A stretch of 33,731 nt of DNA from Planctomycetota bacterium (GTDB taxonomy: Bacteria > Planctomycetota > Phycisphaerae > FEN-1346): assembly GCA_026387055.1 (NCBI GenBank), contig JAPLML010000066.1, positions 1 through 33,731 on the forward strand, read 5' to 3'. Positions 3,008 to 27,186 of this stretch are shown here, in pieces (position 1 is the first letter of the stretch; each line of letters starts with the position of its first letter). A model generated the notes under the pieces. That model saw only the letters and a list, made by a program, of their open reading frames with translations, searched no databases and had not been told where the DNA came from. Made by a program: the position numbers and the translations under genes.

Positions 3008-3076
3008 CGCGGTCGCCTTCGGCTCCCCGCTAAAAGCGGCTGGTGTTGCTGTTCAATCCGCAATCCGAAATCCGCC
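3008..3076 (-). repeat. Half-element repeat: heptamer array + GAACAGC + TTTAGCGGGnAGCCGAAGGCGACCGCG, same family as 27103-27186
   Basis: The minus strand reads GGCGGATTTCGGATTGCGGATTGAACAGC...CTTTTAGCGGGGAGCCGAAGGCGACCGCG. The plus strand at 27103-27186 reads ...GCGGAGTGCGGAGTGAACAGC...GTTTAGCGGGCAGCCGAAGGCGACCGCG. Confidence 0.75.
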
Positions 3077-3083
3077 ATGCCTC

Positions 3084-4133
3084 TTATCGGCTGCCTGCGA
3101 TCTGAATGAACGTCTCCTTGATGCTGATGTCGGCGACGCACGCCCGTTCGCACCGGCCGCAGCCGACGCAGCCGCTCCGCCCCGTCTGATCGAGGATGTA
3201 CTTACCCTTGCGGAACATCCGGTGCCTCAGGCGGCTCGAGCGATCCTTGCGGAAGTTCTCGCCGCCCGCCACCTCGGCGAACGGGTCGAGCTGGCACGAA
3301 TCGTAGCGCCGCACGCGGCAGCCCTTCGTCAGGTCCACCGCCACGTCGTCGTCCACGTCCCAGCAGTAACAGGTCGGGCAGGTCGTGTTGCACGAGCCGC
3401 AGGCGAAGCACCGCCGCGCGATCGCCTCCCACACGAGGCTGTCGTACGAGGCGTCGAGAATCTCGGGCAGGTACTTGACCTCGAACGGCAACTGGAAGTG
3501 GAAGTTGCCGCGCTTCTCCTCCGCGAACTTCTGCCGCGCCTGCATGTCCTGTTTCGTGGCCGGCCGGACCTTGGCCTTCTCCACGAGGGCCTCGCCCAGC
3601 GGCGTCTTCACCTCGACGAAGAACCGGTTGCCCTCGGGCGTCAGCATCACGTCGTAGCCGGCCTCCGGGTACAGCGACCCCATGTCGAGGCAGAAGCAGG
3701 TCTCGTCGCACGGGGCCGCGCAGTCGATGCTGACGATGGCCGTGTCGGCCCGCCGCGCCAGGTAGTGCGGGTCCGCGATGTCCTTGGAGAACGCCGCGTC
3801 GAGCGTCTGGATCGCGGTCACGTCGCACGGGTGGACGCCGAACAGGACGTGCGGCTCGTGATCGAGGACCGCGGTCGGCCTGGGATCCGCGCCGATCTGG
3901 TAGGACATCACGGTCTGCCGGGCGGGCCAGAGGAACTTCTTCGGCCCCAGGACCGTGACCGTGTAGTCCAGGCGGACCTCGGCCGGATCCGCGATATACT
4001 CCCAGCCGAACTTCAGGTCGGTCCGGTCCGCCGGCGACGTCTCCTTGAGAACCGGGGCCGCCACCCGACGCTGCGCCGCCAGCGCCTCGATCCATGCCCC
4101 CAGGTCGCTCTTGTTCAGGACTAATGGCAACAT
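3084..4133 (-). CDS. Hydrogenase beta subunit (4Fe-4S, AsrA-like)
   Basis: 349-aa ORF with Cys clusters CFACGSCNTTCPTCYC and CVGCGRCERAC. It is the first gene of the four-gene beta-gamma-delta-alpha arrangement typical of group 3b hydrogenases. Confidence 0.85.
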   Translation of the reverse strand: MLPLVLNKSDLGAWIEALAAQRRVAAPVLKETSPADRTDLKFGWEYIADPAEVRLDYTVTVLGPKKFLWPARQTVMSYQIGADPRPTAVLDHEPHVLFGVHPCDVTAIQTLDAAFSKDIADPHYLARRADTAIVSIDCAAPCDETCFCLDMGSLYPEAGYDVMLTPEGNRFFVEVKTPLGEALVEKAKVRPATKQDMQARQKFAEEKRGNFHFQLPFEVKYLPEILDASYDSLVWEAIARRCFACGSCNTTCPTCYCWDVDDDVAVDLTKGCRVRRYDSCQLDPFAEVAGGENFRKDRSSRLRHRMFRKGKYILDQTGRSGCVGCGRCERACVADISIKETFIQIAGSR

Positions 4134-7301: not shown

Positions 7302-8267
7302 CTACAGCGTCTCGTAGCGGGCCACGGCGCGGAAGATGCCCGCGATCTCGTTGGGCCTGACAAATGTGGGCGCGTGCCGCTCGTTGAGCGGCTGAAGGCG
7401 GACCCGGTCCTCGGCGTCAAAGAAGACGCGTTTGAAGGTCGTCTCGCCGTCGGTCGGACCGCCGGTCATGGCGAACCGCACGAAGCAGTCGTCTCCGGAC
7501 CTGACCGAGGCGGCCGGGCTCAAGATGACCACGTCCCCCTCGTGGTACTTCGGCGCCATCGAGTCGCCGACCACGCGCACGGCAAAGGCGTTCGGGTCCG
7601 AGAGCTCCGTGGGCGCCGCCACGTATTCGTCGGCGATGCCCACCGGGTAGCCGAGGTCCGTGAAGTCCTGCGGATACCCGGCAGCCACCTTGTTGATGAT
7701 CGGGATCGCCCGGACCGCCGCCTGGGGCGTCTCGGCCCGCGCATCGCCCCACTCGGCCAGATGGTGCAGCAGCCCGCTGCGGTAGAGGGCATCGAGGTCC
7801 GCGACGAGCGCCGTCCCGTCCGGCTTCCCCTGCCCCGCACCGGGGGCCGCCTCCGCAGGCAGCGGTGCCGTATCCGGACTGCCGGGCCTCGCGCCCTCCC
7901 TTGCAGCCAAGAGCGCCCGAATCACCTCTTCCGTCGAGTCGAAGACCTCGCGGAGACGGGCGATCCGGGCCTTCACCGCCTCGGGAAGCGCCGAGAAGTG
8001 CGCCCGGGCCACAAGGGCGTCGCCCTCCAGCCCCAGGGCCTCGGCAATCTTCCGGACTTTGTCGTCTCGGGGCGGCGGCGCGTAACCTGTCTCAATCTGC
8101 GACAAGTACGACTTTGCCATCCCCGTCGCCGCCGACAGCATCTCCAGCGTCATGCCGCGCTTCGTCCTTGCCAGACGGACCTCTTGGCCGAAAGCAGCGC
8201 TCTCCGGGCTTATGCCAAGCAACTGGCGAAGGGCACCCAATTCCCTCAAGTTCTCTTTCAGTCCCAC
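7302..8267 (-). CDS. CI/LexA-like repressor (XRE-family HTH + S24 peptidase domain)
   Basis: The N-terminus has the HTH RTKRGMTLEMLSAATGMAKSYLSQIETG. The C-terminus has AVRVVGDSMAPKYHEGDVVI (Ser nucleophile) and ...TTFKRV (Lys). GTG start with GGAGA 7 nt upstream. Confidence 0.85.
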   Translation of the reverse strand: MGLKENLRELGALRQLLGISPESAAFGQEVRLARTKRGMTLEMLSAATGMAKSYLSQIETGYAPPPRDDKVRKIAEALGLEGDALVARAHFSALPEAVKARIARLREVFDSTEEVIRALLAAREGARPGSPDTAPLPAEAAPGAGQGKPDGTALVADLDALYRSGLLHHLAEWGDARAETPQAAVRAIPIINKVAAGYPQDFTDLGYPVGIADEYVAAPTELSDPNAFAVRVVGDSMAPKYHEGDVVILSPAASVRSGDDCFVRFAMTGGPTDGETTFKRVFFDAEDRVRLQPLNERHAPTFVRPNEIAGIFRAVARYETL

Positions 8268-8405
8268 GGCCTGTCTCCGCGACTTGGTTCCTGGATTTCG
8301 GTCGTCACCGGACCTTCTGTCGGCTCCCGGACATGGGTAGAGCTCAGCAATTCCAGGTTTTTTTCACTCCCCATCAACCATCTTGTCCGCAACCCAACCC
8401 GATCA

Positions 8406-8430
8406 TAAGTTTAGCACATTCCGAAACTTA
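8406..8430. promoter_or_regulatory. Inverted repeat TAAGTTT-N11-AAACTTA, candidate operator in the divergent switch region
   Basis: 7-bp perfect arms at 8406-8412 and 8424-8430. The arms overlap the -10 and abut the -35 of the candidate leftward promoter. CGAAACT also recurs at 8422-8428 and 8455-8461, 33 nt apart. Confidence 0.4.
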
Positions 8431-8435
8431 GTCAA
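8408..8435 (-). promoter_or_regulatory. Candidate leftward promoter (TTGACT-N16-TAAACT) for the repressor gene
   Basis: The minus strand reads TTGACTaagtttcggaatgtgcTAAACT. It lies in the AT-richer intergenic region upstream of the 8267 start. Confidence 0.35.
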
Positions 8436-8497
8436 GCGAGAAGCTCCTCGAAATCGAAACTAGACCACGCCTGCCAAAATAAGGCATCAGATTGTGT

Positions 8498-8525
8498 TTG
8501 ACGCAGAGTAAAAGTGTGGTATAAT
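8498..8525 (+). promoter_or_regulatory. Near-consensus sigma70 promoter (TTGACG-N16-TATAAT with TGn extended -10) for the rightward operon
   Basis: Reads TTGACGcagagtaaaagtgTGgTATAAT, with -35 at 8498-8503 and -10 at 8520-8525, about 29 nt upstream of ATG 8554. Confidence 0.65.
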
Positions 8526-8553
8526 AAGTAGCAAAGGTTGGCGGCTGGCACAC

Positions 8554-9102
8554 ATGGCCTACGGCATGCAGAACGGCGATGGCCTTACAAAGAGTGGCGG
8601 TTTGCTGGGCAGCAAACCGGCCACGCTGAGTTACGCACTACGGGAACACGATCTCCGATTGCTGCCCTTGAAGGAGAGGTGTCTCTTGCGCCTCCTCTAC
8701 TACCGCGGTGCAACGCAGCGCGAACTGGCAGGGGCCCTCGGAGTCAGCCGTGGGCGCCTGCGTCGCATGCTTCGCAGGGCACATCGGCGGGCCACGGACC
8801 CCCAGAACCTGGCTATCGTGCGGTGCTGGCGCCGCCTGACCGAACAGGAGCAGCGCGTGGTCCGCCTGAACTGCTTCTGGGGGCTGTCGCTCAGAGAGGT
8901 CGCGCGCGACGCACTCATCGCGATGCCACCTGTGGGCGGCAGGCCCGGCAGCACTGCCACGCTGACACAACTGCGGAGCATGATACGGGCAGTTCGGCGC
9001 AAGGCCCGGCGCCACGAGCGGCGGCGCGAGGGTAGCCGCCCCCGCACCGAGGGCATCGGGCAACCAATCACTTCGCCTGGTCAGGAGTCACAGGAAACGT
9101 GA
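8554..9102 (+). CDS. Sigma-70 region-4-like HTH regulator (two tandem r4-like HTH units), possible late-gene activator
   Basis: LPLKERCLLRLLYYRGATQRELAGALGVSRGRLRRML and LTEQEQRVVRLNCFWGLSLREVARD both resemble sigma region 4 / LuxR-type HTH. Its position ahead of the packaging genes resembles RinA/ArpU-type activators (analogy only). Confidence 0.55.
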   Translation: MAYGMQNGDGLTKSGGLLGSKPATLSYALREHDLRLLPLKERCLLRLLYYRGATQRELAGALGVSRGRLRRMLRRAHRRATDPQNLAIVRCWRRLTEQEQRVVRLNCFWGLSLREVARDALIAMPPVGGRPGSTATLTQLRSMIRAVRRKARRHERRREGSRPRTEGIGQPITSPGQESQET

Positions 9103-9382
9103 ACCGTATGCGAAAGCACGGGAGCGTCTCAAGCCGGTCCCCGTACAGCGCCCGAAGCTCCGCCAGGAGTGCTTCGCGCGAGGCGAAACCATCGAGCCGC
9201 GCGTCCTCCTCGGTCAGGGCCTCCGGGCGGACGTCCTCGAACGCCGTCACCAGGACCTTGCCCAACCCCGGTACGAACTCCACCTGGCCGGCGCGCAGCC
9301 GCCGCTTCGGCCAGATTCTCACCGTCTGCCGCTTGGCCCCCGACGCAATCGGTTCCAGAAACTTCTTCTTGAACAGGAGCAT
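9068..9382 (-). CDS. ASCH domain protein
   Basis: MLLFKKKFLEPIASGAKRQTVRIWP...LTEEDARLDGFASREALLAELRALY matches the ASCH (PUA-like) pattern. The internal ATG at 9382 is preferred over the track start at 9433. It overlaps the previous gene convergently by 35 nt. Confidence 0.75.
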   Translation of the reverse strand: MLLFKKKFLEPIASGAKRQTVRIWPKRRLRAGQVEFVPGLGKVLVTAFEDVRPEALTEEDARLDGFASREALLAELRALYGDRLETLPCFRIRFTFPVTPDQAK

Positions 9383-9431
9383 CCCTCGCCTCGGTTGCCG
9401 CGGCGACCCCCTCGGACGGAGGAGCATACGC

Positions 9432-10217
9432 ATGACCCTCTACACGATCAATCAAAAGTTCCAGGCCGCGCCCACCGGCCGCGCGGCCGAACCGTGCGGC
9501 GCGCGCAGACTCAAGGTGGCCGAGATGTTCGGCATCGGCCTCGACGAGTCCTATGAGGTCACGCTCTACCACGACCTCCGCCTCGACGTCCGCCCTGGCG
9601 ACGTGGTGTTCATCACCGGCCCGTCGGGCAGCGGCAAGAGCGTCCTCCTGCGCAATCTGGCCCGCGCCATCCAGGGGGAGCCGCCAACGGGGGCTCGCCT
9701 TGTGGACCTGGGGACCATCCACGAGGCGGGGCGCCGCGGCGACCGGCCTGTCATCGACCTTATGACAGGGCCTCTGGAACAGGCCCTGCGGCTGCTGAGC
9801 GCCGCAGGGCTGGCCGACGCGTTTCTGCTCCTGAGGACGCCGCAGGAGCTTTCCGACGGGCAGCGGTACCGCCTGCGGTTGGCCCTGGCGCTCGATGCGC
9901 TGCTGGGTGGCGCGGCTGAGGACGTGGCGCCGCACGGTTGCCCGCCCGCCGCGGCGGGCGGGCTGAGTGGAGAGGACGGCGGCCTGAATGTGCTGGTCGC
10001 CGATGAGTTCTGTTCCACGCTCGACCTGCTCTGCGCGCGGGCGGTCGCGTACCGCGTCCGCCGTCTGGCGACAACGCACGGCGTCACGGTCCTCGCCGCG
10101 AGCGCCCACGATGATGTCGTGGAGGACCTCGCGCCGGACGTCCTGGTCGCCAAGCACGAGGGGATCGGCATCGAGGTCATCTACGCCGATCCCGGCCGCG
10201 CCGAGGTGCAGCCATGA
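9432..10217 (+). CDS. ABC-type ATPase (stand-alone nucleotide-binding domain)
   Basis: Has Walker A GPSGSGKS, signature-like LSDGQRYR, Walker B VLVADEF and an H-loop-like SAHD. ATG at 9432 is preferred; the upstream part of ORF 9099..10217 is antisense to the ASCH gene. Confidence 0.8.
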   Translation: MTLYTINQKFQAAPTGRAAEPCGARRLKVAEMFGIGLDESYEVTLYHDLRLDVRPGDVVFITGPSGSGKSVLLRNLARAIQGEPPTGARLVDLGTIHEAGRRGDRPVIDLMTGPLEQALRLLSAAGLADAFLLLRTPQELSDGQRYRLRLALALDALLGGAAEDVAPHGCPPAAAGGLSGEDGGLNVLVADEFCSTLDLLCARAVAYRVRRLATTHGVTVLAASAHDDVVEDLAPDVLVAKHEGIGIEVIYADPGRAEVQP

Positions 10218-11065
10218 TCGCCGAGGCGAGGCCCGCCAAGCTGTGCACGCTCCTGGCGAACATCCGCATCGAACGCGGCACCCGCGACGACTGGCTGGCC
10301 CTGGCCCGCTTCCACTACCGCAGCCACGAAGCCGGGGCGGTGACGGGCATCTTTCGCATGGTGTATGACACGGGCGGAGTGCGGACTGCGGAGTGCGGAC
10401 TGCGAAATGAAAAGTCAAAGAGTAAGACGGCAACGATGCCTGACTTTTCACTCCGCACTCCGCATTCCACACTCCGCACTGTCCTTGTCGGCGCGCTCGT
10501 GTACAGCCGCTCGCCCCTGTCGCTGGCGGCCCGCGACCGCGCGACGGGCGGGAGGTACCGGACGGCCGGCATGGGCCGCACGGCCGCGGGGTACCTCATC
10601 AACCGCGAGCTTCGCATTATCAGCCGCGTCGTCCTCGCGCCGAACTGGCGCGGGCTGGGTCTCGCCAGCCGCCTGGTGGCCGAGACGCTCCCCCACGCGG
10701 GGACGCCCTATGTCGAGGCGATGGCCGCGATGGGCGAGATGCACCCGCTGTTTGAACGGGCCGGCATGACGGCCTATCCGCAGCGGCCCGCGCCACAGGG
10801 CGAGCGGCTCCGGGCGGCCCTGGAGGCCGCCGGCATCGACCGGGCGGCCCGCCGACGCGGCGCCGACCTCTTGCGGGCCATCGACGCCTTGCCCCCCGGC
10901 CCGCGCCGCCTCCTGGACCGTGAAGTCGAGCGGTGGGCCCGCTCCTACCTCGGCGCCAAGAACCACCGGACGTGCCGGCTCGGCCGCGAGCGGATGCTCG
11001 ACCTGGCGGCCCGGCATCTCGACAGCGTGCCGGTGTACTACCTATGGAGGAATCCACGCCCATGA
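10214..11065 (+). CDS. GNAT-like acyltransferase-fold protein carrying an in-frame repeat-element insertion
   Basis: RVVLAPNWRGLGLASRLVAE resembles GNAT motif A (R/Q-x-x-G-x-G/A). ATGA start/stop overlap with the ABC ATPase gene (10214-10217). Residues ~GVRTAECGLRNEKSKSKTATMPDFSLRTPHSTLRT are encoded by repeat copy A. Confidence 0.5.
   Translation: MIAEARPAKLCTLLANIRIERGTRDDWLALARFHYRSHEAGAVTGIFRMVYDTGGVRTAECGLRNEKSKSKTATMPDFSLRTPHSTLRTVLVGALVYSRSPLSLAARDRATGGRYRTAGMGRTAAGYLINRELRIISRVVLAPNWRGLGLASRLVAETLPHAGTPYVEAMAAMGEMHPLFERAGMTAYPQRPAPQGERLRAALEAAGIDRAARRRGADLLRAIDALPPGPRRLLDREVERWARSYLGAKNHRTCRLGRERMLDLAARHLDSVPVYYLWRNPRP
10374..10481. repeat. Heptamer-array palindromic element, copy A (inside the GNAT-like CDS, in-frame)
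   Basis: Left array GCGGAGT GCGGACT GCGGAGT GCGGACT GCGAAAT (10374-10408). Extended stem GAAAAGTCA...TGACTTTTC. Loop AAGAGTAAGACGGCAACGATGCC. Right array ACTCCGC ACTCCGC ATTCCAC ACTCCGC (10450-10477). Confidence 0.9.
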
Positions 11066-11523
11066 AAACCACGCCACGCCATCGCAAGATCGCCCGCACG
11101 ATCTGGGAATGCGGGGGCCGGCTCGAAGAGGCCGCCCAGCGAGAAGACGTCCGCCCGGACACGCTGCGCCGGTGGCTCGCCGACGGGGACTTCCGGGCCC
11201 TGCTGGCCGAGGACGCCCTGGAGCCGATCCTCCAGGCCACCAGCGCCATGCTCCGGTGGGCGCCGGTGGCCGTGGCGCGGCTCATCCAGGACCTGGAGGG
11301 CGAGTCGGCCGCCGACGCGCGCCAGGCGGCACGCGAAATCTTCAAGCTTGCCCTCGACACGCAGCGCGAACTCGCCCGCTCCGCCGAGGCGCCGCCCGGC
11401 GATGCCAAGCAGGCCGACGGACCCTCGGACGACCCCCTCACGCAGCGCGTGGCCGGCCTGACCGACGAACAACTGGCCCGAGTGCTCGCCATCCTGAACG
11501 AGACGAAAGGAGACCGCCGATGA
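11062..11523 (+). CDS. Terminase small subunit-like HTH protein
   Basis: 153 aa. The N-terminal HTH GGRLEEAAQREDVRPDTLRRWL is followed by a helical, acidic C-terminus. GGAGG lies 11 nt upstream. ATGA overlaps occur at both ends (11062-11065 and 11520-11523), and it lies two genes before TerL. Confidence 0.5.
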   Translation: MKTTPRHRKIARTIWECGGRLEEAAQREDVRPDTLRRWLADGDFRALLAEDALEPILQATSAMLRWAPVAVARLIQDLEGESAADARQAAREIFKLALDTQRELARSAEAPPGDAKQADGPSDDPLTQRVAGLTDEQLARVLAILNETKGDRR

Positions 11524-12245
11524 CCCTCCAGTGGATCCCCCTGGGCTGCCTGGAGCCGCACCCCGAGAACTCGAACCGCATGCCGCCGCGGCTCCTGGAG
11601 AAACTCAAGGCCCACATCCAGCGCACGGGCCTTTACGAGCCGCTGGTGGTTCGACCCCTTGAGTGCGGAGTGCGGAGTGCGGAATGCGAAGTGCAAGACA
11701 ACAGCAAGAACAGCGCGGCGGAGCCGAGTGCGGCGGAGTCTGCCTCTTTCACTCCGCATTCCGCACTCCTCACTCCGCACGTGCAGTACCAGATTCTCAA
11801 CGGCCACCACCGGGCCGAGGTGCTGCGCCTGCTCGGCCACACGCACGCAAGGTGCGACGTGTGGGAGGTAGACGATGCCGAGGCGCGGCTGCTCCTGGCG
11901 ACCCTCAACCGGCTGGAGGGCCGCGACGATTCGGCGGCGCGGGCGCGGCTCGTGGCGCGGCTGGCCGAGGGACGGTCGGCCGAGGAACTCTCGCGGCTGC
12001 TGCCGGAGCCGGCCGATGCCGTCGAGCGGCTGCTGGCCCTGGCGAAGCCGCCGCCGGCGCCACTCGCGCCCGACGAGGTGGAGGTGCCCGCGCGGCCGAT
12101 GACGTTCTTCCTCACCGACGAGCAGCACGAGGCGGTGAGCGAGGCGCTGCGCGAGGCGGCGGCGCCCGCCGCGCCGAAATGCTCGCGGGCCGAGGCGCTC
12201 GAGCGGCTCGCCCTCTGGTATCTCGAGGCCCGGAACCGCCGCTAG
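11520..12245 (+). CDS. ParB-like nuclease (ParB/Srx N-terminal) domain protein carrying an in-frame repeat-element insertion
   Basis: IPLGCLEPHPENSNRMPPRLLEKLKAHIQRTGLYEPLVVRPL ... YQILNGHHRAEVLRLLG carries the GxxR-type ParB motif. A 40-codon segment encoded by repeat copy B separates VVRPL from YQILNGHHR. Confidence 0.8.
   Translation: MTLQWIPLGCLEPHPENSNRMPPRLLEKLKAHIQRTGLYEPLVVRPLECGVRSAECEVQDNSKNSAAEPSAAESASFTPHSALLTPHVQYQILNGHHRAEVLRLLGHTHARCDVWEVDDAEARLLLATLNRLEGRDDSAARARLVARLAEGRSAEELSRLLPEPADAVERLLALAKPPPAPLAPDEVEVPARPMTFFLTDEQHEAVSEALREAAAPAAPKCSRAEALERLALWYLEARNRR
11661..11780. repeat. Heptamer-array palindromic element, copy B (inside the ParB-like CDS, in-frame, 120 nt)
   Basis: Left array GCGGAGT GCGGAGT GCGGAAT GCGAAGT (11665-11692). 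Right array ACTCCGC ATTCCGC ACTCCTC ACTCCGC (11751-11778). The loop differs from copies A and D. Confidence 0.9.
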
Positions 12246-12267
12246 CGCTCCGTCTCATGTGAAATGA

Positions 12268-12347
12268 GGGGTGCCACGGCCGGCTTGTCCGGCAGCGGCC
12301 GGGCGCACCCCCGGAGTCCCCACGGCGGGACAAGCCCGCCGTGTCAC
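12268..12347. repeat. Family-2 GC-rich palindromic repeat (GTGCCACGGCCGGCTTGTCCGGC ... CCACGGCGGGACAAGCCCGCCGTG), diverged copy
   Basis: Shares the CACGGCCGGCTTGTCCGGC / GGACAAGCC core with the perfect 33-bp inverted repeat at 19470-19555. It lies between the ParB-like gene and TerL. Confidence 0.7.
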
Positions 12348-12417
12348 AAAGACGTGCCGAAGCACGCAGGGTGGGTGCTGTGCATCCACCTTCAACTACA
12401 TCCGGAGAGATCTACTC

Positions 12418-14025
12418 ATGAGCGTTCGCCCTGTGCCGCCGGAGGAGCTTCGGTCGCGCCTCGCGCCGGCGCTCGCCTCGGCCCGCCCGAAGTCGCCCGA
12501 ATCGCTCTGGGAGTTCGTCCGGAGCGTCTACGGCCTGGCCGTCCCGCGGCGGGCGGTGTGCCCCGGCCACGCGGCGCCGATGGAGTACCTGGCGCGGGCG
12601 ATCCTGGCGCCGGGGCGGGACCTGGTGGTCTGGGCCTCCCGCGGCGGCGCGAAGACGGAGCTCGGCAGCGTGGCCGCCCATCTCGATTCCATCCTGCGGC
12701 CGGGGTGCCAGACGCGCATCCTCGGCGGGAGCCTGGACCAGTCTGAAAAAATGTATGAATATCTCATGCGCAAGTGGGGCGGGCCGTTCGCGGCCCTGCT
12801 CGCGCGCGAGCCGACGGCCCGGCGGACTGCGCTCGCCAACGGCTCGGCGATCGAGGTCCTGACCCAGTCGCCGAGGTCGGTCCGCGGCCAGCGCGTGCAC
12901 CGGCTGAAGTGCGACGAGGTCGACGAGTTCTCACCCGACGTCTGGCGGGCCGCGCAGTTCGTCACCCAGTCGAGCCCCGGCCGCGACGGCCGGTGGATCC
13001 CCGCCCAGATGGAGGTCTTCTCGACGCTCCACCGGCCGTTCGGACCGATGGCGGCGCTGGTCGACCGTCTCCTCCAGTGCGGAGTGCGGAATGCGGAGTG
13101 CGGAGTAAACGGCGAACCACGACAAGAGGGTGCGGCACGTTGCCAGTCCATTCCCCCCTCCGAACTCCGCACTCCACACTTGCTCAAGTGGTGTTTGTGG
13201 GAAGTCATCGAGCCCTGCCCCGCCGAGCGGTCGTGCAGCCGGTGCCCCCTGTGGACCGATTGCGAGGGCAAGGCCCGGCGGGCCGACGGCTACTTTCCGA
13301 TCGCCGACGCCATCGCCCAGAAGGCCCGGGCCAGCCGCGAGGCGTGGGAGGCCGAGATGCTGTGCCTGCGGCCCCGCGCGGACCGGCTGGTCTTTGCGGA
13401 GTTCGACCCCGCGCGGCACGTGGCGCCGCTGGCGTATGATCCGGGATTGCCGCTCTATCGCGCCATCGATTTCGGGTACGCGAACCCGTTCGTGTGCCTG
13501 TGGGTGCAGGTCAATGACGGCGGCGCGCGGCAAGGCGCCGGCAACGGGGGCGACCCGGATCTTTCGCGCCTGGAGCTTCGCGTCATCCGCGAGTACGTGG
13601 CCCGCGAGCGGCCCGTGGCCGAGCACGCCCGCGAGATGGGGGCCCGCGATCCGGGGCCGGTGCTCGCGACGTTCGCCGACCCCGCCGGCTGGCAGCGGTC
13701 GGACGTGACGGGCACCGGGCCGTGCCAGGAACTCGCGCGGCTGGGCATCCGCACCCGCACGCCGCGGGCGGGAATCCTGGAAGGGGTGGAGCTCCTGCGG
13801 CGGCTCCTCAAGCCGCGCGACGGCGGACGGTCAGGACTCGTGGTCGACCCGTCGAGCACGTGGCTCGTGCGGGCGTTCCAGGAGTATCACTGGGACGAGT
13901 CCGACGACGGCCGCCGCAACGAGCGCCCGGCCAAGGACGGGGCGGACCATCCGATTGACGCACTGCGATATCTCGTCACCGGACTCTTCCTCAAACGTGA
14001 AGCGGTGAGGGAGAGGAGGTGGTGA
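12418..14025 (+). CDS. Terminase large subunit (ATPase + RNaseH-like nuclease) carrying an in-frame repeat-element insertion
   Basis: Has Walker A-like WASRGGAKTE, Walker B RLKCDEVDEF and an FST coupling motif. The nuclease acidic residues fall in YRAIDFGYANPF, FADPAGW and DGADHPIDALRYLV. ATG at 12418 has GGAGAG 10 nt upstream. Repeat copy C is inserted after the ATPase domain. Confidence 0.9.
   Translation: MSVRPVPPEELRSRLAPALASARPKSPESLWEFVRSVYGLAVPRRAVCPGHAAPMEYLARAILAPGRDLVVWASRGGAKTELGSVAAHLDSILRPGCQTRILGGSLDQSEKMYEYLMRKWGGPFAALLAREPTARRTALANGSAIEVLTQSPRSVRGQRVHRLKCDEVDEFSPDVWRAAQFVTQSSPGRDGRWIPAQMEVFSTLHRPFGPMAALVDRLLQCGVRNAECGVNGEPRQEGAARCQSIPPSELRTPHLLKWCLWEVIEPCPAERSCSRCPLWTDCEGKARRADGYFPIADAIAQKARASREAWEAEMLCLRPRADRLVFAEFDPARHVAPLAYDPGLPLYRAIDFGYANPFVCLWVQVNDGGARQGAGNGGDPDLSRLELRVIREYVARERPVAEHAREMGARDPGPVLATFADPAGWQRSDVTGTGPCQELARLGIRTRTPRAGILEGVELLRRLLKPRDGGRSGLVVDPSSTWLVRAFQEYHWDESDDGRRNERPAKDGADHPIDALRYLVTGLFLKREAVRERRW
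13077..13180. repeat. Heptamer-array palindromic element, copy C (inside TerL CDS, in-frame)
   Basis: Left array GCGGAGT GCGGAAT GCGGAGT GCGGAGT (13079-13106). The right array is degenerate: (CCTCCGA) ACTCCGC ACTCCAC (13157-13177). It encodes CGVRNAECGVNGEPRQEGAARCQSIPPSELRTPH. Confidence 0.85.
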
Positions 14026-14026
14026 G

Positions 14027-14126
14027 GCAAGTGCGGAGTGCGGAATGCGAGATGAAAAGTCATAGAGTAAGACGGCAACGATGCCTCACTTTTCACTCTG
14101 CACTCCGCATTCCGCACTCCGCACTG
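14027..14126. repeat. Heptamer-array palindromic element, copy D (fills the whole TerL/PLD intergenic spacer)
   Basis: Same loop and stem as copy A (GATGAAAAGTCATAGAGTAAGACGGCAACGATGCCTCACTTTTC). I count about 5 mismatches in ~82 hand-aligned nt. It starts 2 nt after the TerL stop and ends at the PLD stop codon. Confidence 0.9.
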
Positions 14127-14654
14127 TCACCAAGGCGATTCGAGGGGGACGGGGCAATGGGGCCTCTGGTGGCAGGTCTGGCACATCGAGCCGGACCAGA
14201 CGGCCTCGAACAGGTCGGCCACGGTGTCCACGAGGACGGGGTCGTCGGTCACGAGGCCGATCTCGAAGTTGCGTCGGCCGGCGCTCTTGGCGCCGAGGCC
14301 CGCGCCGGTGAGGTTGGCGCTGCCGAGGTAGAGCCGCTGACCGTCGGCGATGGCCGCCTTGAAGTGCGTCCGCGGGCAGCGGCGCATGTGAAACACACCG
14401 GGGCGGACCGCCTTGAGTTCCTCGAGGAACGGCCCCGAAGGCACGCCGCTGTGCAGGATCCGCACCTCCACGCCGCCATCGCCCAGGCGCTCGAAGAGCC
14501 GGACGACGCTCTCCGCATGACCGCCGGGCTTGGGAATCCGCGTGGCCTTGAGTGTGGCGGTGGCCACCAGGAGGCTGTCCTTCGCCGACGGAATGAGGTC
14601 CGCCAGGACGCGGGCGTAGATGCGCTCGCCGGTGAGGTACTCGAACTGGGGCAT
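14127..14654 (-). CDS. Phospholipase D-family (single HKD, Nuc-like) protein
   Basis: HKD motif HFKAAIADGQRLYLGSANLT (HxK-x4-D-x6-GSxN). ATG at 14654 has GGGAGG 5 nt upstream and is preferred over the track start at 14747. Confidence 0.8.
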   Translation of the reverse strand: MPQFEYLTGERIYARVLADLIPSAKDSLLVATATLKATRIPKPGGHAESVVRLFERLGDGGVEVRILHSGVPSGPFLEELKAVRPGVFHMRRCPRTHFKAAIADGQRLYLGSANLTGAGLGAKSAGRRNFEIGLVTDDPVLVDTVADLFEAVWSGSMCQTCHQRPHCPVPLESPW

Positions 14655-14759
14655 GAGGGCCTCCCGCTTCCTCCCTGACAACACGTAGGCCGCGGCAACG
14701 CCGCGGCTTCCCGCCATGGGTATGATGGCAGGCCGTAACGTTGCCACGGCCTACGCACT

Positions 14760-24021: not shown

Positions 24022-25663
24022 GCGATATCGAAGAGTATTGCGCGGCATCGCTCATCAGTAGAAGAGCCCTGACGGCGTAGTAACGGAAGTCGCGATCCTT
24101 ACCGCGCAGTTCCGCCGCGAGGGCCGCCACGCTGGAAGTCTCGAGCGCCCGGGCGGCGAAGCGCCGGATGCCGGGTTTCCTGCCCTCCTCGGCCGCCCGC
24201 CGCAGAACCTTGGCGGCCTCCGGCGTATTGAGATGGGCGAGGCCCGCAACCGCCGCGAACGCCTCCCAATCGGACTTGCCCCGCAGCCTCTCCGCCAAGA
24301 CCGGCACCGCTTCCGACCTGTTAAGCAAGGCCAGCGCAAAGGCCGCCACGATGCGCACCCCCTCGTCTTTGTCCCCGAGGGCCTTCACCAGCGTGGACAC
24401 GGCCTGCGGGTCGCCGATCGCGCCGAGGGAAAGCACCGCCCAGAAGCGCACGGTATACTCCTTGTCCTTGAGCGCGGCCGTCAGTCCGGCTACCGCCCGC
24501 GGATCACCCAGGTCGCCAAGCGCCTGTGCCGCGCTCGTCCGAACGTCATCCTTGGCGTCTTCGAGGGCCACCAGCAAGCCTGGGAGAGCCCGTAGGTCGC
24601 CGATCTCGCCGAGGGCCTGCGCAGCCGCGCCGCGCACCCCTTCATCTGCGTCAGCCAGCGCGGCCAAGAGCAGGGGCACCGCCTCGGAGGCGCCGATGTC
24701 TCCTGACGCCCTTGCCGCGGCGGAGCGCACATGGCTTTCCTCGTCCTTGAGCGCCGCCACAATCGCAGTTGCCGCCCGCGGATCGCCGATGTTGCCGAGG
24801 GCCTGTGCGGCCGAGGAGCGAAGCATGGGGTCCGCGTCGGCAAGGCCTGTCAGGAGGGCAGGCACTGCCGCCGGGTCGCCGATATTGCCGAGGGCCTGGG
24901 CCGCCGAGGAGCGAAGCTTGGGGTCCGCGTCGGCAAGGGCTGTCATGAGGGCGGGCACTGCCGCCGGGTCGCCGATATGGCCGAGGGCCCGGGCGGCTTC
25001 GACGCGAGGACCCTTGGTGGCGTCGGCAAGCGCCGCCAAGAGGGCTGGCACGGCCGCAGGGTCGCCGATCGAACCCAGCGCCTCCGCCGCCGCCTCGCGC
25101 ACCATCTTGTCCAGATCGCCGACCAGAGGCAGGAGCTCGGGCACCGCTGTCGGATCACCTATCTTACCAAGCGCCTTGGCGGCGGCGACGCGAGGACTCT
25201 GCTTTTCATCCTCAAGTAAACTCATGAGAGGTGCAATCGCCGCCGGGTCGCCGATCTGGCCCAGGGCCTCCGCCGCCGTCTCGCGGACAACCTCCGCCCT
25301 GTCCTTGAGCGCCGCGATCAGCGGCGGGACCGCCTCGGGACCTATCGCCGCCAGATCCTGGACGATCTGCCATTGCCGTGGCCCCTCCTCACGAGGCCCC
25401 AGGCCGAGCAGGCGCCGCACCCAATCGCTGAACCCGTTCCGCTGCTCGCCGGCCCGAAGTTGGCGGAGAAGCACTGCCACCTGGTCTTCCGGCGGGGCAT
25501 AGACCACGGATCTCAGGAGGACCAAGCCGCCCACCACCAGGAGGAGCGCCGCCGCACCCACCAGGAGCCACAGGTGCCAGCGGCGCGCCGGGGTCAGGGA
25601 GGCCGTCTCGGCTGGAAGGTCGGGCTGTGACATGCCGGCATTGTACTGGCTCCGATCCGGCAA
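23822..25663 (-). CDS. HEAT-repeat (PBS-lyase-type) protein with N-terminal TM helix
   Basis: Has about 12 units of the type AAxALGxIGDPxAVPALLxALxDxxxxVR, after an N-terminal RRWHLWLLVGAAALLLVVGGLVLL. The start is at 25663 or 25633. The last ~65 codons overlap the 3' end of 19720..24021 and look like low-complexity read-through. Confidence 0.8.
   Translation of the reverse strand: MPDRSQYNAGMSQPDLPAETASLTPARRWHLWLLVGAAALLLVVGGLVLLRSVVYAPPEDQVAVLLRQLRAGEQRNGFSDWVRRLLGLGPREEGPRQWQIVQDLAAIGPEAVPPLIAALKDRAEVVRETAAEALGQIGDPAAIAPLMSLLEDEKQSPRVAAAKALGKIGDPTAVPELLPLVGDLDKMVREAAAEALGSIGDPAAVPALLAALADATKGPRVEAARALGHIGDPAAVPALMTALADADPKLRSSAAQALGNIGDPAAVPALLTGLADADPMLRSSAAQALGNIGDPRAATAIVAALKDEESHVRSAAARASGDIGASEAVPLLLAALADADEGVRGAAAQALGEIGDLRALPGLLVALEDAKDDVRTSAAQALGDLGDPRAVAGLTAALKDKEYTVRFWAVLSLGAIGDPQAVSTLVKALGDKDEGVRIVAAFALALLNRSEAVPVLAERLRGKSDWEAFAAVAGLAHLNTPEAAKVLRRAAEEGRKPGIRRFAARALETSSVAALAAELRGKDRDFRYYAVRALLLMSDAAQYSSISLSAPTLLRPRGRRHQGRPHRRTSSGALRGARGTGACTPRRGRSRLTAGGRRRPPSGLACPNPSGTA
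24783..25000. repeat. Near-identical 93-bp tandem units within the HEAT-repeat CDS
   Basis: TCGCCGAT(G/A)TTGCCGAGGGCCTG...GGGTCCGCGTCGGCAAGG... recurs with period 93 nt, with unit starts at 24783, 24876 and 24969. Confidence 0.85.
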
Positions 25664-27102: not shown

Positions 27103-27186
27103 CAGTGCGGAACCCGGAATGCGGAGTGCGGAGTGAACAGCGAAGGCAACGACATACTGTTTAGCGGGCAGCCGAAGGCGACCGCG
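27103..27186 (+). repeat. Half-element repeat (heptamer array + GAACAGC + GTTTAGCGGGCAGCCGAAGGCGACCGCG), same family as 3008-3076
   Basis: GTGCGGAACCCGGAATGCGGAGTGCGGAGTGAACAGC... has only the GCGGAnT-type arm. The 3' 27 nt are nearly identical to the minus strand of 3008-3034. It lies between the SDR stop and the bioF-like start. Confidence 0.8.

What the first reader, a model, noticed from the sequence alone, without database searches (positions are those of the whole stretch)
10374..13180. Palindromic heptamer-array elements inserted in-frame in three consecutive protein-coding genes (RPE-like selfish DNA)
Three ~105-120-nt elements interrupt the GNAT-like, ParB-like and TerL ORFs without breaking the reading frame. 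Each has an array of GCGGAnT heptamers, a loop, and an array of the complementary AnTCCGC heptamers.

They encode ECGVRSAECG... / ...LRTPHSALRTPH peptides. These lie between conserved blocks: FRMVYDT|...|LVGALVYSR in the GNAT-like protein, LVVRPL|40 aa|YQILNGHHR in the ParB motif region, and after the ATPase domain of TerL. These positions look like loops or linkers.

A 7-nt unit cycles through all three phases every 21 nt, and neither arm contains TAA, TAG or TGA. The arms are therefore stop-free in all six frames, so an insertion can leave an ORF open in any phase or orientation.

The only well-known precedent I recall is the Rickettsia palindromic elements. I know of no description of this in a GC-rich, PVC-like genome or in terminase genes.
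Basis: partly seen in the sequence, partly recalled or inferred. Interest (0 to 1): 0.8.

Follow-up and report, generated by a model that had tools for sequence, protein, structure and literature searches.

The report
Heptamer-armed hairpin repeats inside live genes
Small hairpin-forming repeat elements, built from runs of a 7-base unit, sit in frame inside three neighbouring working genes; they belong to a widespread and apparently undescribed repeat family that normally lies between genes.

Summary
Three 105-121-nt hairpins with arms of (GCGGANT)3-5 lie in frame in the GNAT-like, ParB-like and TerL genes. E1 and E4 are 92% identical including the loop, so whole elements are copied.

Distant orthologues have short loops at these sites. 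Close relatives carry variable inserts there: other heptamer flavours, decayed arms or unrelated hairpins, while the flanks stay 86-99% identical. The host genes are under purifying selection (dN/dS 0.14-0.43). The TerL insert is modelled as a disordered linker.

A metagenome sample yielded 163 such hairpins. About 50% are intergenic, starting within a few bases of a stop codon, and about 19% are in frame in genes, including DnaE2, DnaX, Mfd and DinB. There is no target-site duplication, the ends are sharp, and no transposase was found.

Verdict: a REP/RPE-like palindromic repeat family with heptamer-array arms, a new variant of a known kind. The six-frame stop-freeness holds for the arms but is only mildly special at 68% GC. 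The unexplained part is that orthologous sites are occupied by different heptamer flavours in different genomes.

The parts
10373..10483 (.). Element E1: left arm (GCGGAGT/GCGGACT) x4-5 at 10374-10404, loop, right arm (ACTCCGC/ATTCCAC) at 10449-10480. It lies in frame in the GNAT-like gene and encodes GGVRTAECGLRNEKSKSKTATMPDFSLRTPHSTLRT.
   Evidence: I1; -65.6 kcal/mol, z -9.4. It is 92% identical to E4. It is absent from L201 and L203 at the same site.
11661..11781 (.). Element E2: arms at 11661-11694 and 11750-11780 with a 55-nt loop. It lies in frame in the ParB-like gene and encodes ECGVRSAECEVQDNSKNSAAEPSAAESASFTPHSALLTPH.
   Evidence: I2, 92% complementary; -75.1 kcal/mol, z -8.1. The loop is homologous in L201-L203, but the arms are shortened or decayed there.
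13076..13180 (.). Element E3: arms at 13076-13106 and 13158-13180. It lies in frame in TerL, in the linker after the ATPase domain, and encodes QCGVRNAECGVNGEPRQEGAARCQSIPPSELRTPHL.
   Evidence: I5; -50.6 kcal/mol, z -4.6. L201 carries an ATTTCGG-flavour element at the same site.
14028..14127 (.). Its loop is the same as that of E1.
   Evidence: (-53.5 kcal/mol, z -8.6). This site is occupied in L201, L202, L203 and L126 by elements of different flavours.
27104..27135 (+). Solo left arm, about 4 heptamers of the AGTGCGG/AATGCGG type, 6 nt after the stop of the SDR gene. It has no partner arm and forms no hairpin.
   Evidence: (z 0.3)
3054..3075 (-). Short array of 3 CGGATTG-type heptamers (AATCCGC on the + strand), about 9 nt downstream of the stop of the Fe-S gene 3084-4133(-).
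10214..11065 (+). GNAT-like gene (283 aa), host of E1.
   Evidence: (phrog_886, 5e-11)
11520..12245 (+). ParB-like gene (241 aa), host of E2.
   Evidence: ParB_N 6.4e-5 once the insert is removed; phrog_723, 5e-15
12418..14025 (+). Large-terminase-like gene (535 aa), host of E3.
   Evidence: phrog_2, 3.5e-17; Foldseek match to phage D6E TerL, 7e-12

Best explanation
**What it is.** These are copies of a family of about 100-120-bp non-autonomous palindromic repeat elements. Each has two inverted arrays of 3-5 GCGGANT heptamers around a 25-55-nt loop, sharp ends (A-R-TGCGG ... CCGCA-Y-T) and no target-site duplication.

**Shown.**
- Whole elements are copied to new places (E1 is a copy of E4).
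- The family is abundant in GC-rich contigs. The named relatives of the window's genes are mostly Phycisphaerae/Planctomycetota, and the one soil contig whose host I identified is Gemmatimonadota.
- Most copies fill short spacers directly behind stop codons.
- About one in five lies in frame inside a gene, at a variable loop or an inter-domain linker.
- In this window, three neighbouring genes of a conserved chromosomal cassette each carry one copy and remain under purifying selection.

**Inferred: why in-gene copies survive.**
- The arms have no stop codon in any of the six frames.
- They encode the same cyclic peptides (AECGVRS and TPHSALR) in every phase and orientation.
- Gain or loss of one heptamer changes the length by 1 modulo 3, so a broken frame can be restored. 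Arm-length differences seen inside genes are multiples of 21 nt.
- The insert is translated as a disordered surface loop.

**Inferred by analogy with REPs.** Intergenic copies may act as 3' hairpins on the mRNA.

**Inferred: how they spread.** The enzyme is unknown. Sharp ends, hairpin form and no duplication fit a single-strand or hairpin-recognising mechanism (RAYT/IS200-like), or conversion between copies, better than a DDE cut-and-paste transposase. Occupied sites are turned over repeatedly, which produces different flavours at the same site in close relatives.
For: - **Repeat anatomy and significance:**
- **Copying of a whole element:** E1 and E4 are 92% identical over 100 nt, loop included. 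The same loop is found in L202 at the E4 site.
- **A canonical form:** about 104 nt with a conserved 40-nt loop, at dozens of unrelated metagenome loci.
- **Presence, absence and replacement with 86-99% identical flanks:**
- **Orthologue loops:** the ParB loop is 6-8 aa and the GNAT loop about 10-17 aa in distant orthologues, against 0-70 aa in the close clade. The TerL linker is 6-108 aa, and 58 of 117 relatives show heptamer-type peptides there.
- **Live genes:** dN/dS 0.14-0.43. TerL relatives occur in 298 GTDB species and the gene order is conserved.
- **Disordered insert:**
- **Census:** 163 hairpins in 794 kb, with 81 intergenic, 51 overlapping a gene end and 31 inside a CDS, against a coding density of 0.878.
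- **Position of intergenic copies:** most start -8 to +12 nt from the upstream stop and end 2-26 nt before the next start.
- **Real hosts:** 9 of 10 tested have Pfam domains flanking the insert: DnaE2, DnaX, Mfd, DinB, an AMP-binding enzyme, a CCG/Fe-S protein, a DUF6094 methyltransferase and TPR proteins.
- **No TSD, sharp ends:**
- **Arms open in 6/6 frames:**
- **In-frame arm-length change:** W and L201 ParB differ by exactly 21 nt in the left arm and by 14 aa in all.
Against: - No transposase or RAYT was found in the window, and no autonomous partner was found in 124 loci.
- The source genome is not available, so the census rests on a metagenome sample chosen for intact arms and on my own codon-model gene caller.
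- The class of 51 elements that overlap a gene end is unresolved.
- Repeated occupancy of the same sites across lineages (TerL, post-TerL, DnaE2) is not what random insertion of selfish DNA predicts. It may mean targeting or function.
- The variable base of paired heptamers is complementary in only 57% of pairs against 47% expected, so a perfect hairpin is not strongly maintained.
- Translation of the inserts has not been shown.
Confidence: 0.8

Rival explanations
1. Microsatellites grown in place. Heptamer arrays arise and expand by replication slippage at fragile sites, and a fold-back or template switch creates the inverted partner. Nothing moves.
For: - Unit numbers differ between orthologous copies.
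- Other Phycisphaerae carry hairpins with unrelated heptamer units.
- Heptamer SSRs in inverted pairs with no link to mobile elements are described in Xanthomonas (PMC4692102).
- No TSD and no transposase were found.
Against: - E1 and E4 share arms and a 45-nt loop at 92% identity, at sites 3.6 kb apart.
- A conserved 40-nt loop recurs at dozens of unrelated loci.
- The ends are sharp, with A at position -1 in about 90% of copies.
- L201 lacks any heptamers at the E1 site although its flanks are 92-99% identical.
- Slippage probably explains changes in arm length, but not the origin of copies.
Confidence: 0.08
2. Selected functional modules. The hairpins or their peptides are kept because they do something: they pause ribosomes at domain boundaries, stabilise or partition operon mRNA, or supply flexible linkers or binding sites for a host protein.
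For: - The same sites are occupied across many lineages: 58 of 117 TerL linkers, the post-TerL site in all five genomes examined (W, L126, L201, L202, L203) and the DnaE2 C-terminus in most orthologues.
- Inserts sit at domain boundaries.
- The hairpins are very stable.
- Intergenic copies are placed tightly between a stop codon and the next ribosome-binding region.
Against: - Sequence, length and flavour at a site are not conserved.
- Arms decay or are deleted in close relatives (L201 and L203 at E2; P0003 at E3) without loss of the gene.
- Many orthologues have short loops.
- The peptide is modelled as disordered.
- Pairing at the variable base is barely above chance.
Confidence: 0.1
3. The three genes are dead: a decaying prophage remnant that tolerates junk insertions.
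For: TerL has no portal or capsid neighbours. Three of four local copies are in genes.
Against: - All three frames are intact.
- dN/dS is 0.14-0.43 against three relatives.
- TerL relatives occur in 298 species, with ABC/GNAT/ParB/TerL gene order conserved.
- About 120 invariant TerL residues are conserved, including in the region aligned to the ATPase and nuclease domains of solved terminases.
- The same family inserts into DnaE2, DnaX and Mfd.
Confidence: 0.01
4. Contingency (phase-variation) switches. Slippage of a unit whose length is not a multiple of 3 turns the three genes on and off.
For: One heptamer shifts the frame by 1. The arrays are stop-free, so shifted reading continues into the gene.
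Against: - The arrays are short (3-5 units) and imperfect.
- All observed orthologous length differences inside genes keep the frame.
- Hosts are housekeeping and DNA-metabolism genes, not surface genes.
- No out-of-frame alleles appear among 120 TerL relatives.
Confidence: 0.01

Closest known systems
Rickettsia palindromic elements (RPE; Ogata et al. 2000/2002, as cited in PMC3733652)
   Same: Repeated hairpin elements of about 100-150 bp found in frame inside genes whose products stay functional. Inserts lie at permissive surface positions. Intergenic copies also exist.
   Different: - The sequence is unrelated and the arms are tandem heptamer arrays rather than unique sequence.
- The hosts are free-living GC-rich bacteria (Planctomycetota-like, Gemmatimonadota) rather than an obligate intracellular alphaproteobacterium.
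- Only about 19% of sampled copies are in genes.
- The peptide is identical in every phase and orientation.
- Orthologous sites carry different flavours.
REP / REPIN elements with RAYT transposases, including intragenic REPs (Di Nocera et al. 2013, PMC3733652; PMC8266576)
   Same: - Inverted pairs that form hairpins of about 100 nt.
- Mainly downstream of genes, between same-direction or convergent genes.
- No TSD.
- Lineage-specific families.
- Some copies lie inside genes, notably replication and repair genes. Here DnaE2, DnaX, Mfd and DinB are hosts.
   Different: - No GTAG or CGTC tag at the ends.
- Each arm is a tandem array of a 7-nt unit instead of one 20-40-nt palindrome.
- No RAYT gene was seen (window only).
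Heptamer SSRs in inverted pairs in Xanthomonas (GGGAATC) and Nostoc (GGGGAYT), Rehm et al. 2015, PMC4692102; cyanobacterial STRR heptamers (from my own memory of Mazel et al. 1990)
   Same: - Tandem heptamers, typically about 4 units.
- 70-75 convergent inverted pairs per Xanthomonas genome.
- Mostly intergenic and within 50 bp of a stop codon, with a minority intragenic.
- A variable base at one position of the unit.
- Rotated, both units read GGANT plus 2 nt.
   Different: - The units here have only GG, so the G-quadruplex reading proposed for Xanthomonas does not apply.
- Conserved loops and copied whole elements show a defined mobile unit.
- In-frame residence in conserved genes is documented here.
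Bacterial MITEs, e.g. Correia/NEMIS, Coxiella QMITEs (PMC10969869, PMC5896051)
   Same: Short non-coding elements with terminal inverted repeats and a stable RNA hairpin. They occasionally fuse in frame with genes.
   Different: No target-site duplication. No related insertion sequence with the same ends was found.

Membership tests
Rickettsia palindromic elements (RPE) | Repeated palindromic element of about 100-150 bp able to form a long hairpin | tested here: met
   Elements of 100-121 nt, arms 74-92% complementary, -50 to -75 kcal/mol
Rickettsia palindromic elements (RPE) | In-frame insertion in genes that stay functional, at permissive loops | tested here: met
   Open frames. dN/dS 0.14-0.43. 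Orthologue loops. Disordered linker in the model.
Rickettsia palindromic elements (RPE) | Sequence relationship to the RPE families, and occurrence in Rickettsiales | not tested
   No RPE consensus was available for comparison. Named relatives of the host genes are Planctomycetota/Phycisphaerae, so I treat this as an analogue, not a member.
REP/REPIN-RAYT | Units tagged by a terminal GTAG or CGTC tetranucleotide | tested here: not met
   The ends are A-R-TGCGG ... CCGCA-Y-T at 124 unique sites.
REP/REPIN-RAYT | Mainly extragenic, downstream of genes, as inverted doublets | tested here: met
   81 intergenic plus 51 at gene ends out of 163. Most start within -8 to +12 nt of a stop codon.
REP/REPIN-RAYT | A cognate Y1 (RAYT) transposase gene in the genome, flanked by the repeats | tested here: inconclusive
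   None among about 30 window proteins scanned with Pfam. The rest of the genome is not available.
MITE | Target-site duplication flanking the terminal inverted repeats | tested here: not met
   The distribution of direct-repeat lengths equals that of shuffled flank pairings.
MITE | A parent insertion sequence with the same ends | tested here: inconclusive
   No gene bracketed by inverted arms in 124 loci. Whole genomes were not searched.
Xanthomonas/Nostoc heptamer SSRs (Rehm 2015) | Tandem heptamers, modal about 4 units, often as convergent inverted pairs near stop codons | tested here: met
   description in PMC4692102
Xanthomonas/Nostoc heptamer SSRs (Rehm 2015) | G3-4 tracts able to form G-quadruplexes | tested here: not met
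   The units GCGGANT and TCGGAWT contain only GG.
Phase-variable simple sequence repeats | Long, near-perfect arrays whose unit number varies out of frame between close strains | tested here: not met
   3-5 imperfect units. Differences between W and L201-L203 keep the frame. All 120 TerL relatives are in frame.
Phage large terminase (host gene of E3) | ATPase plus RNase-H-like nuclease fold and a TerL profile match | tested here: met
   phrog_2 at 3.5e-17. Foldseek matches to phage D6E, T4 gp17, P22 and G20c terminases, down to E 7e-12.

The most novel reading that the evidence does not exclude
The heptamer flavour is a property of the genome rather than of the site.

- Relatives with 96-99% identical flanks carry GCGGAGT-type arms in one genome and TCGGATT- or GCGGATT-type arms in the other, at the same two sites, with both arms changed together.
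- Gemmatimonadota DnaE2 shows the same pattern at its C-terminus.

This would fit a genome-encoded machinery that repeatedly homes to, rewrites or re-seeds hairpin sites. Candidates are a hairpin-targeting recombinase with co-evolving specificity, or templated addition of heptamers to both ends of a break followed by joining. The second would directly produce two outward-in identical arrays around filler DNA, with no duplication.

The shared GGANT core with the Xanthomonas heptamers would then point to one cross-phylum system.
Probability: 0.15. Interest if true: 0.85.

Novelty: new variant of a known kind. Interest (0 to 1): 0.6.

Why it matters
- **Scope.** In-frame colonisation of genes by palindromic repeats is not a Rickettsia oddity. 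It occurs in large, GC-rich, free-living bacteria of at least two phyla. Hosts include core replication and repair genes (DnaE2, DnaX, Mfd, DinB) and a conserved terminase-like cassette.
- **Annotation.** The heptamer design gives a simple rule for which repeats can live inside genes. It also explains two annotation problems. First, many short ORFan "proteins" of the ECGVRSAECG / LRTPHSALRTPH type are read-through of intergenic copies. Second, Pfam gave no ParB_N match for the ParB-like protein until the insert was removed.
- **Open question.** Flavour switching at orthologous sites offers a tractable handle on how REP-like families turn over, and on what enzyme moves them.

Tried and rejected
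- **Look-ups by exact sequence.** The window's TerL and GNAT proteins are not on record, so the source genome could not be recovered.
- **Viral contig scan.** The strict hairpin pattern gave 0 hits in viral contigs. The looser 3-unit pattern gave at least 120 stretches, mostly GCGGATT/GCGGAAT types in contigs of 47-70% GC.
- **Protein search with an idealised arm peptide.** It returned mostly 50-130-aa ORFans, so it does not serve as a census of in-gene copies.
- **First repeat scanner.** It was too strict and missed the window's own elements. I replaced it.
- **GC3-based context classifiers.** Two versions mis-called E1 and E2, and scored only 40-60% of random points as coding. I dropped them for a codon-model gene caller that reproduces the window's genes.
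- **Search for an autonomous element.** Distant arm pairs turned out to be separate elements.
- **Target-site duplication test.** Negative.
- **Rfam.** Nothing at gathering score; only sub-threshold miRNA-hairpin look-alikes.
- **PADLOC and NCBIfam.** No known defence system for the cassette, only DrmC-like PLD similarity.
- **Literature.** String searches for the heptamer arrays and the peptides found nothing relevant.
- **G-quadruplex reading.** Rejected because the units contain only GG.
- **Intein, intron or CRISPR readings.** Rejected on size and anatomy.


Full report
**1. Observation**

- GCGGANTGCGGA with up to 1 mismatch occurs 27 times in the 33.7-kb window against 2.4 expected. None of 100 shuffles reaches 27.
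- TRF reports period-7 arrays at each arm.
- The repeat finder pairs the arms as inverted repeats that are 74-92% complementary.
- As single strands the three elements fold into long hairpins: E1 -65.6, E2 -75.1 and E3 -50.6 kcal/mol, with z -9.4, -8.1 and -4.6.
- Each lies inside an ORF that reads straight through it.

The hosts are:
- a GNAT-like protein (phrog_886, weak Acetyltransf_1);
- a ParB-like protein (phrog_723; Pfam ParB_N is reported, at E 6.4e-5, only after the insert is removed);
- a large-terminase-like protein (phrog_2).

An AlphaFold2 model of the terminase-like protein matches solved phage terminases, with D6E at E 7e-12.

**2.

- A fourth full element lies at 14028-14127. 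It starts 3-4 nt after the TerL stop, in the spacer before a convergent PLD-like gene.
- A single arm lies at 27104-27135, 6 nt after a stop codon. It does not fold.
- A 3-unit CGGATTG array lies at 3054-3075, just downstream of another gene.
- E1 and E4 are 92% identical over 100 nt, including the roughly 45-nt loop. E2 and E3 have different loops.

**3. Setting**

The window is ordinary chromosome. It carries hydrogenase and Fe-S genes, a response regulator, an ion channel, two Ser/Thr kinases, an SDR, an aminotransferase and an ABC sugar transporter. No transposase was found.

The three host genes belong to a cassette: LexA/CI-like repressor, sigma-70 region 4 protein, ASCH, ABC-type ATPase, GNAT-like, HTH, ParB-like, TerL and PLD.
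- TerL relatives occur in 298 GTDB species.
- Gene order is conserved in 47-60 of the 80 loci fetched.
- Most records are named Phycisphaerae or Planctomycetota. Several of the closest are titled "uncultured Anaerolineales", so the phylum call is likely but not airtight.

**4. Are the genes alive, and are the sites loops?**

*Selection.* dN/dS against three relatives is 0.14-0.43, even with the inserts left in the alignment.

*ParB and GNAT sites.* In distant orthologues the ParB site is a 6-8-aa loop and the GNAT site about 10-17 aa. In the close clade (50-77% identity) the same two sites hold 0-70 extra residues of unrelated sequence.

*TerL site.* The insert lies between the conserved blocks PFGPMAxLVDRL and LLKWCLWEVIEPCP.
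- The linker is 6-108 aa across 117 relatives.
- 58 of them show heptamer-type peptides on at least one side.
- The model gives residues 226-248 pLDDT below 50, with no secondary structure, between helix 210-220 and strand 254-258.

**5. Close relatives at the DNA level**

Three contigs encode TerL proteins that are 85-94% identical (L201-L203). They have 86-99% identical flanks at all four sites, but their inserts differ.

- **E1 site.** L201 and L203 have a short G/C hairpin and no heptamers.
- **E2 site.** The loop is homologous in all four. The arms are full in W and L202, and shortened or decayed in L201 and L203. W and L201 differ by exactly three heptamers in the left arm and by 14 aa overall.
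- **E3 site.** L201 has an intact hairpin whose two arms are both of the TCGGAWT flavour.
- **E4 site.** All four are occupied. W and L202 share the loop. L201 is GCGGATT-type and L203 is TCGGAAT-type. A more distant genome, L126, has an ATTTCGG hairpin right after its TerL stop.

These sites are therefore turned over faster than their flanks diverge, and flavour tends to go with the genome.

**6. The wider family**

My period-7 scanner found 163 paired elements in 794 kb.

*Form.* A canonical form of about 104 nt dominates: (GCGGART)4, a conserved roughly 40-nt loop (GTCAGGGTGAGCGTCGnnnnGCGAACGACCTCCCACTGCA), then (AYTCCGC)4.

*Location.* I used a codon-model gene caller that reproduces the window's genes and gives a coding density of 0.878.
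- 81 elements are intergenic, 51 overlap a gene end and 31 lie inside a CDS.
- Intergenic copies are mostly between same-direction genes.
- Most start -8 to +12 nt from the upstream stop codon and end 2-26 nt before the next start.
- This asymmetry fits selection to keep the ribosome-binding region, so it does not require targeting of stop codons.

*In-gene hosts.* Nine of ten in-gene hosts tested have Pfam domains, with the insert at or near domain boundaries:
- the DnaE2 C-terminus;
- DnaX, after domain III;
- Mfd, inside the RID domain;
- a Y-family polymerase;
- the hinge of an AMP-binding enzyme;
- a CCG/Fe-S protein;
- a DUF6094 methyltransferase;
- two TPR paralogues.

*A second phylum.* The DnaE2 host's named relatives are Gemmatimonadota. 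Most DnaE2 orthologues carry a mini hairpin at that site, again with lineage-specific flavours.

*Other units.* Other Phycisphaerae loci carry hairpins built from quite different heptamers. Units that contain stop codons were seen mostly outside any long open frame (small sample, one ambiguous case, L182 13539).

**7. Anatomy relevant to mechanism**

- **Ends.** They are sharp: A at position -1 in about 90% of copies on both sides.
- **Target-site duplication.** None. Direct repeats across the element are no longer than in shuffled pairings.
- **Arm symmetry.** Read outward-in, the two arms have the same composition at the variable base (G 52%, A 45%). That base is complementary in only 57% of unit pairs against 47% expected.
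- **Autonomous partner.** No gene bracketed by arms was found.
- **RNA families.** There is no Rfam match.
- **Reading frames.** Arms are open in 6 of 6 frames. Whole elements are open in 4.1-4.5 of 6, against 3.9 for random DNA from the same loci.

**8. Interpretation**

Best supported is a REP/RPE-like family of non-autonomous palindromic repeats with heptamer-array arms.
- It is spread by copying whole elements.
- It is mostly tolerated in short spacers behind genes.
- It is occasionally tolerated in frame in protein loops.
- Slippage by heptamers probably adjusts arm length. Inside genes, only changes that preserve the frame survive.

The mobilising enzyme and any function of the hairpins remain inferences.

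Rivals:
- Microsatellites grown in place. The shared loops contradict this.
- Selected modules. This is weakened by decay, replacement and frequent absence.
- Dead genes. This is contradicted by purifying selection and conservation.
- Phase variation. No out-of-frame alleles were seen.

**9. Relation to the literature**

- In-frame RPEs and intragenic REPs, the latter notably in replication and repair genes, are published (PMC3733652).
- Inverted pairs of heptamer SSRs near stop codons are described in Xanthomonas (PMC4692102).
- Neither the heptamer strings nor the encoded peptides appear in the searchable library.
- I therefore rate this a new variant of a known kind.
- The really puzzling feature is that orthologous sites carry genome-specific flavours.

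Noticed in passing
window 7302-14747: A conserved chromosomal cassette: LexA/CI-like repressor, sigma-70 region 4 protein, ASCH, ABC-type ATPase, GNAT-like, HTH, ParB-like, TerL and a DrmC-like PLD nuclease. There is no portal or capsid gene beside TerL. TerL relatives occur in 298 GTDB species with conserved gene order. The cassette matches no PADLOC system.
   Followed up: partly
L126 4547-6743; TerL relatives P0008, P0012, P0040, P0096: A second family of in-frame repeated inserts (..SRDPSRVRKHAGTPEAPGSPGAGEA..TRDLTVAAR, ..RSLTVAAS..). It occupies the same GNAT, ParB and TerL loops in other genomes. At the DNA level it looks like short GC-rich palindromes.
   Followed up: no
L202, about 1290-1325 and 2640-2690: The same 23-24-nt palindrome-containing insert (GGAGTTTACCCGCCGCGGCGGGC) is nested inside the right arm of two different heptamer elements, in frame (..ARSLPAAAG..). 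A related peptide appears in P0003 and P0104. This suggests a smaller element that targets the heptamer arrays.
   Followed up: no
L271 5728-5795 and relatives P0241-P0360: Gemmatimonadota error-prone polymerase DnaE2 carries a mini heptamer hairpin just after its OB fold in most orthologues. The flavour differs by lineage (CGMRNAECG.., CGLRIADCG.., VGTRNAERGT..).
   Followed up: partly
L171 5542-5618, L182 13539-13641, L175 5397-5515, L155 2307-2412: Other Phycisphaerae carry hairpins built from unrelated heptamers. These include TTGGTCA, and close variants of CAACAGT and CCCCAGT, which I recall as the cyanobacterial STRR units. L182 also has an AGATGGC-type hairpin in frame in its TerL (10599-10677).
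   Followed up: no
window 24779-25069: A 93-nt tandem repeat, 3.1 copies at 84% identity, in a stretch (24168-25502) whose coding status is unclear. It has no Pfam match and competing ORFs on both strands.
   Followed up: no
window 12271-12347: A separate inverted repeat with 28-nt arms (82% complementary, 21-nt loop) in the 170-nt spacer between ParB and TerL. It is not of the heptamer type.
   Followed up: no
TerL relatives P0019, P0033, P0042, P0066, residues about 370-420 (window TerL about 366-385): A second variable site in TerL carries heptamer-type peptides in some relatives. The window has only a short Gly-rich stretch there.
   Followed up: no
L009, L040, L069 (IMG/VR contigs, 47-50% GC): A very high density of GCGGATT/TCGGATT hairpins, up to about one per 2 kb, mostly outside long ORFs, on contigs classed as viral.
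   Followed up: partly
proteins P0121-P0240: Many database 'hypothetical proteins' of 50-130 aa consist almost wholly of ECGVRSA/LRTPHSA repeats. They are probably gene-caller read-through of intergenic copies.
   Followed up: partly
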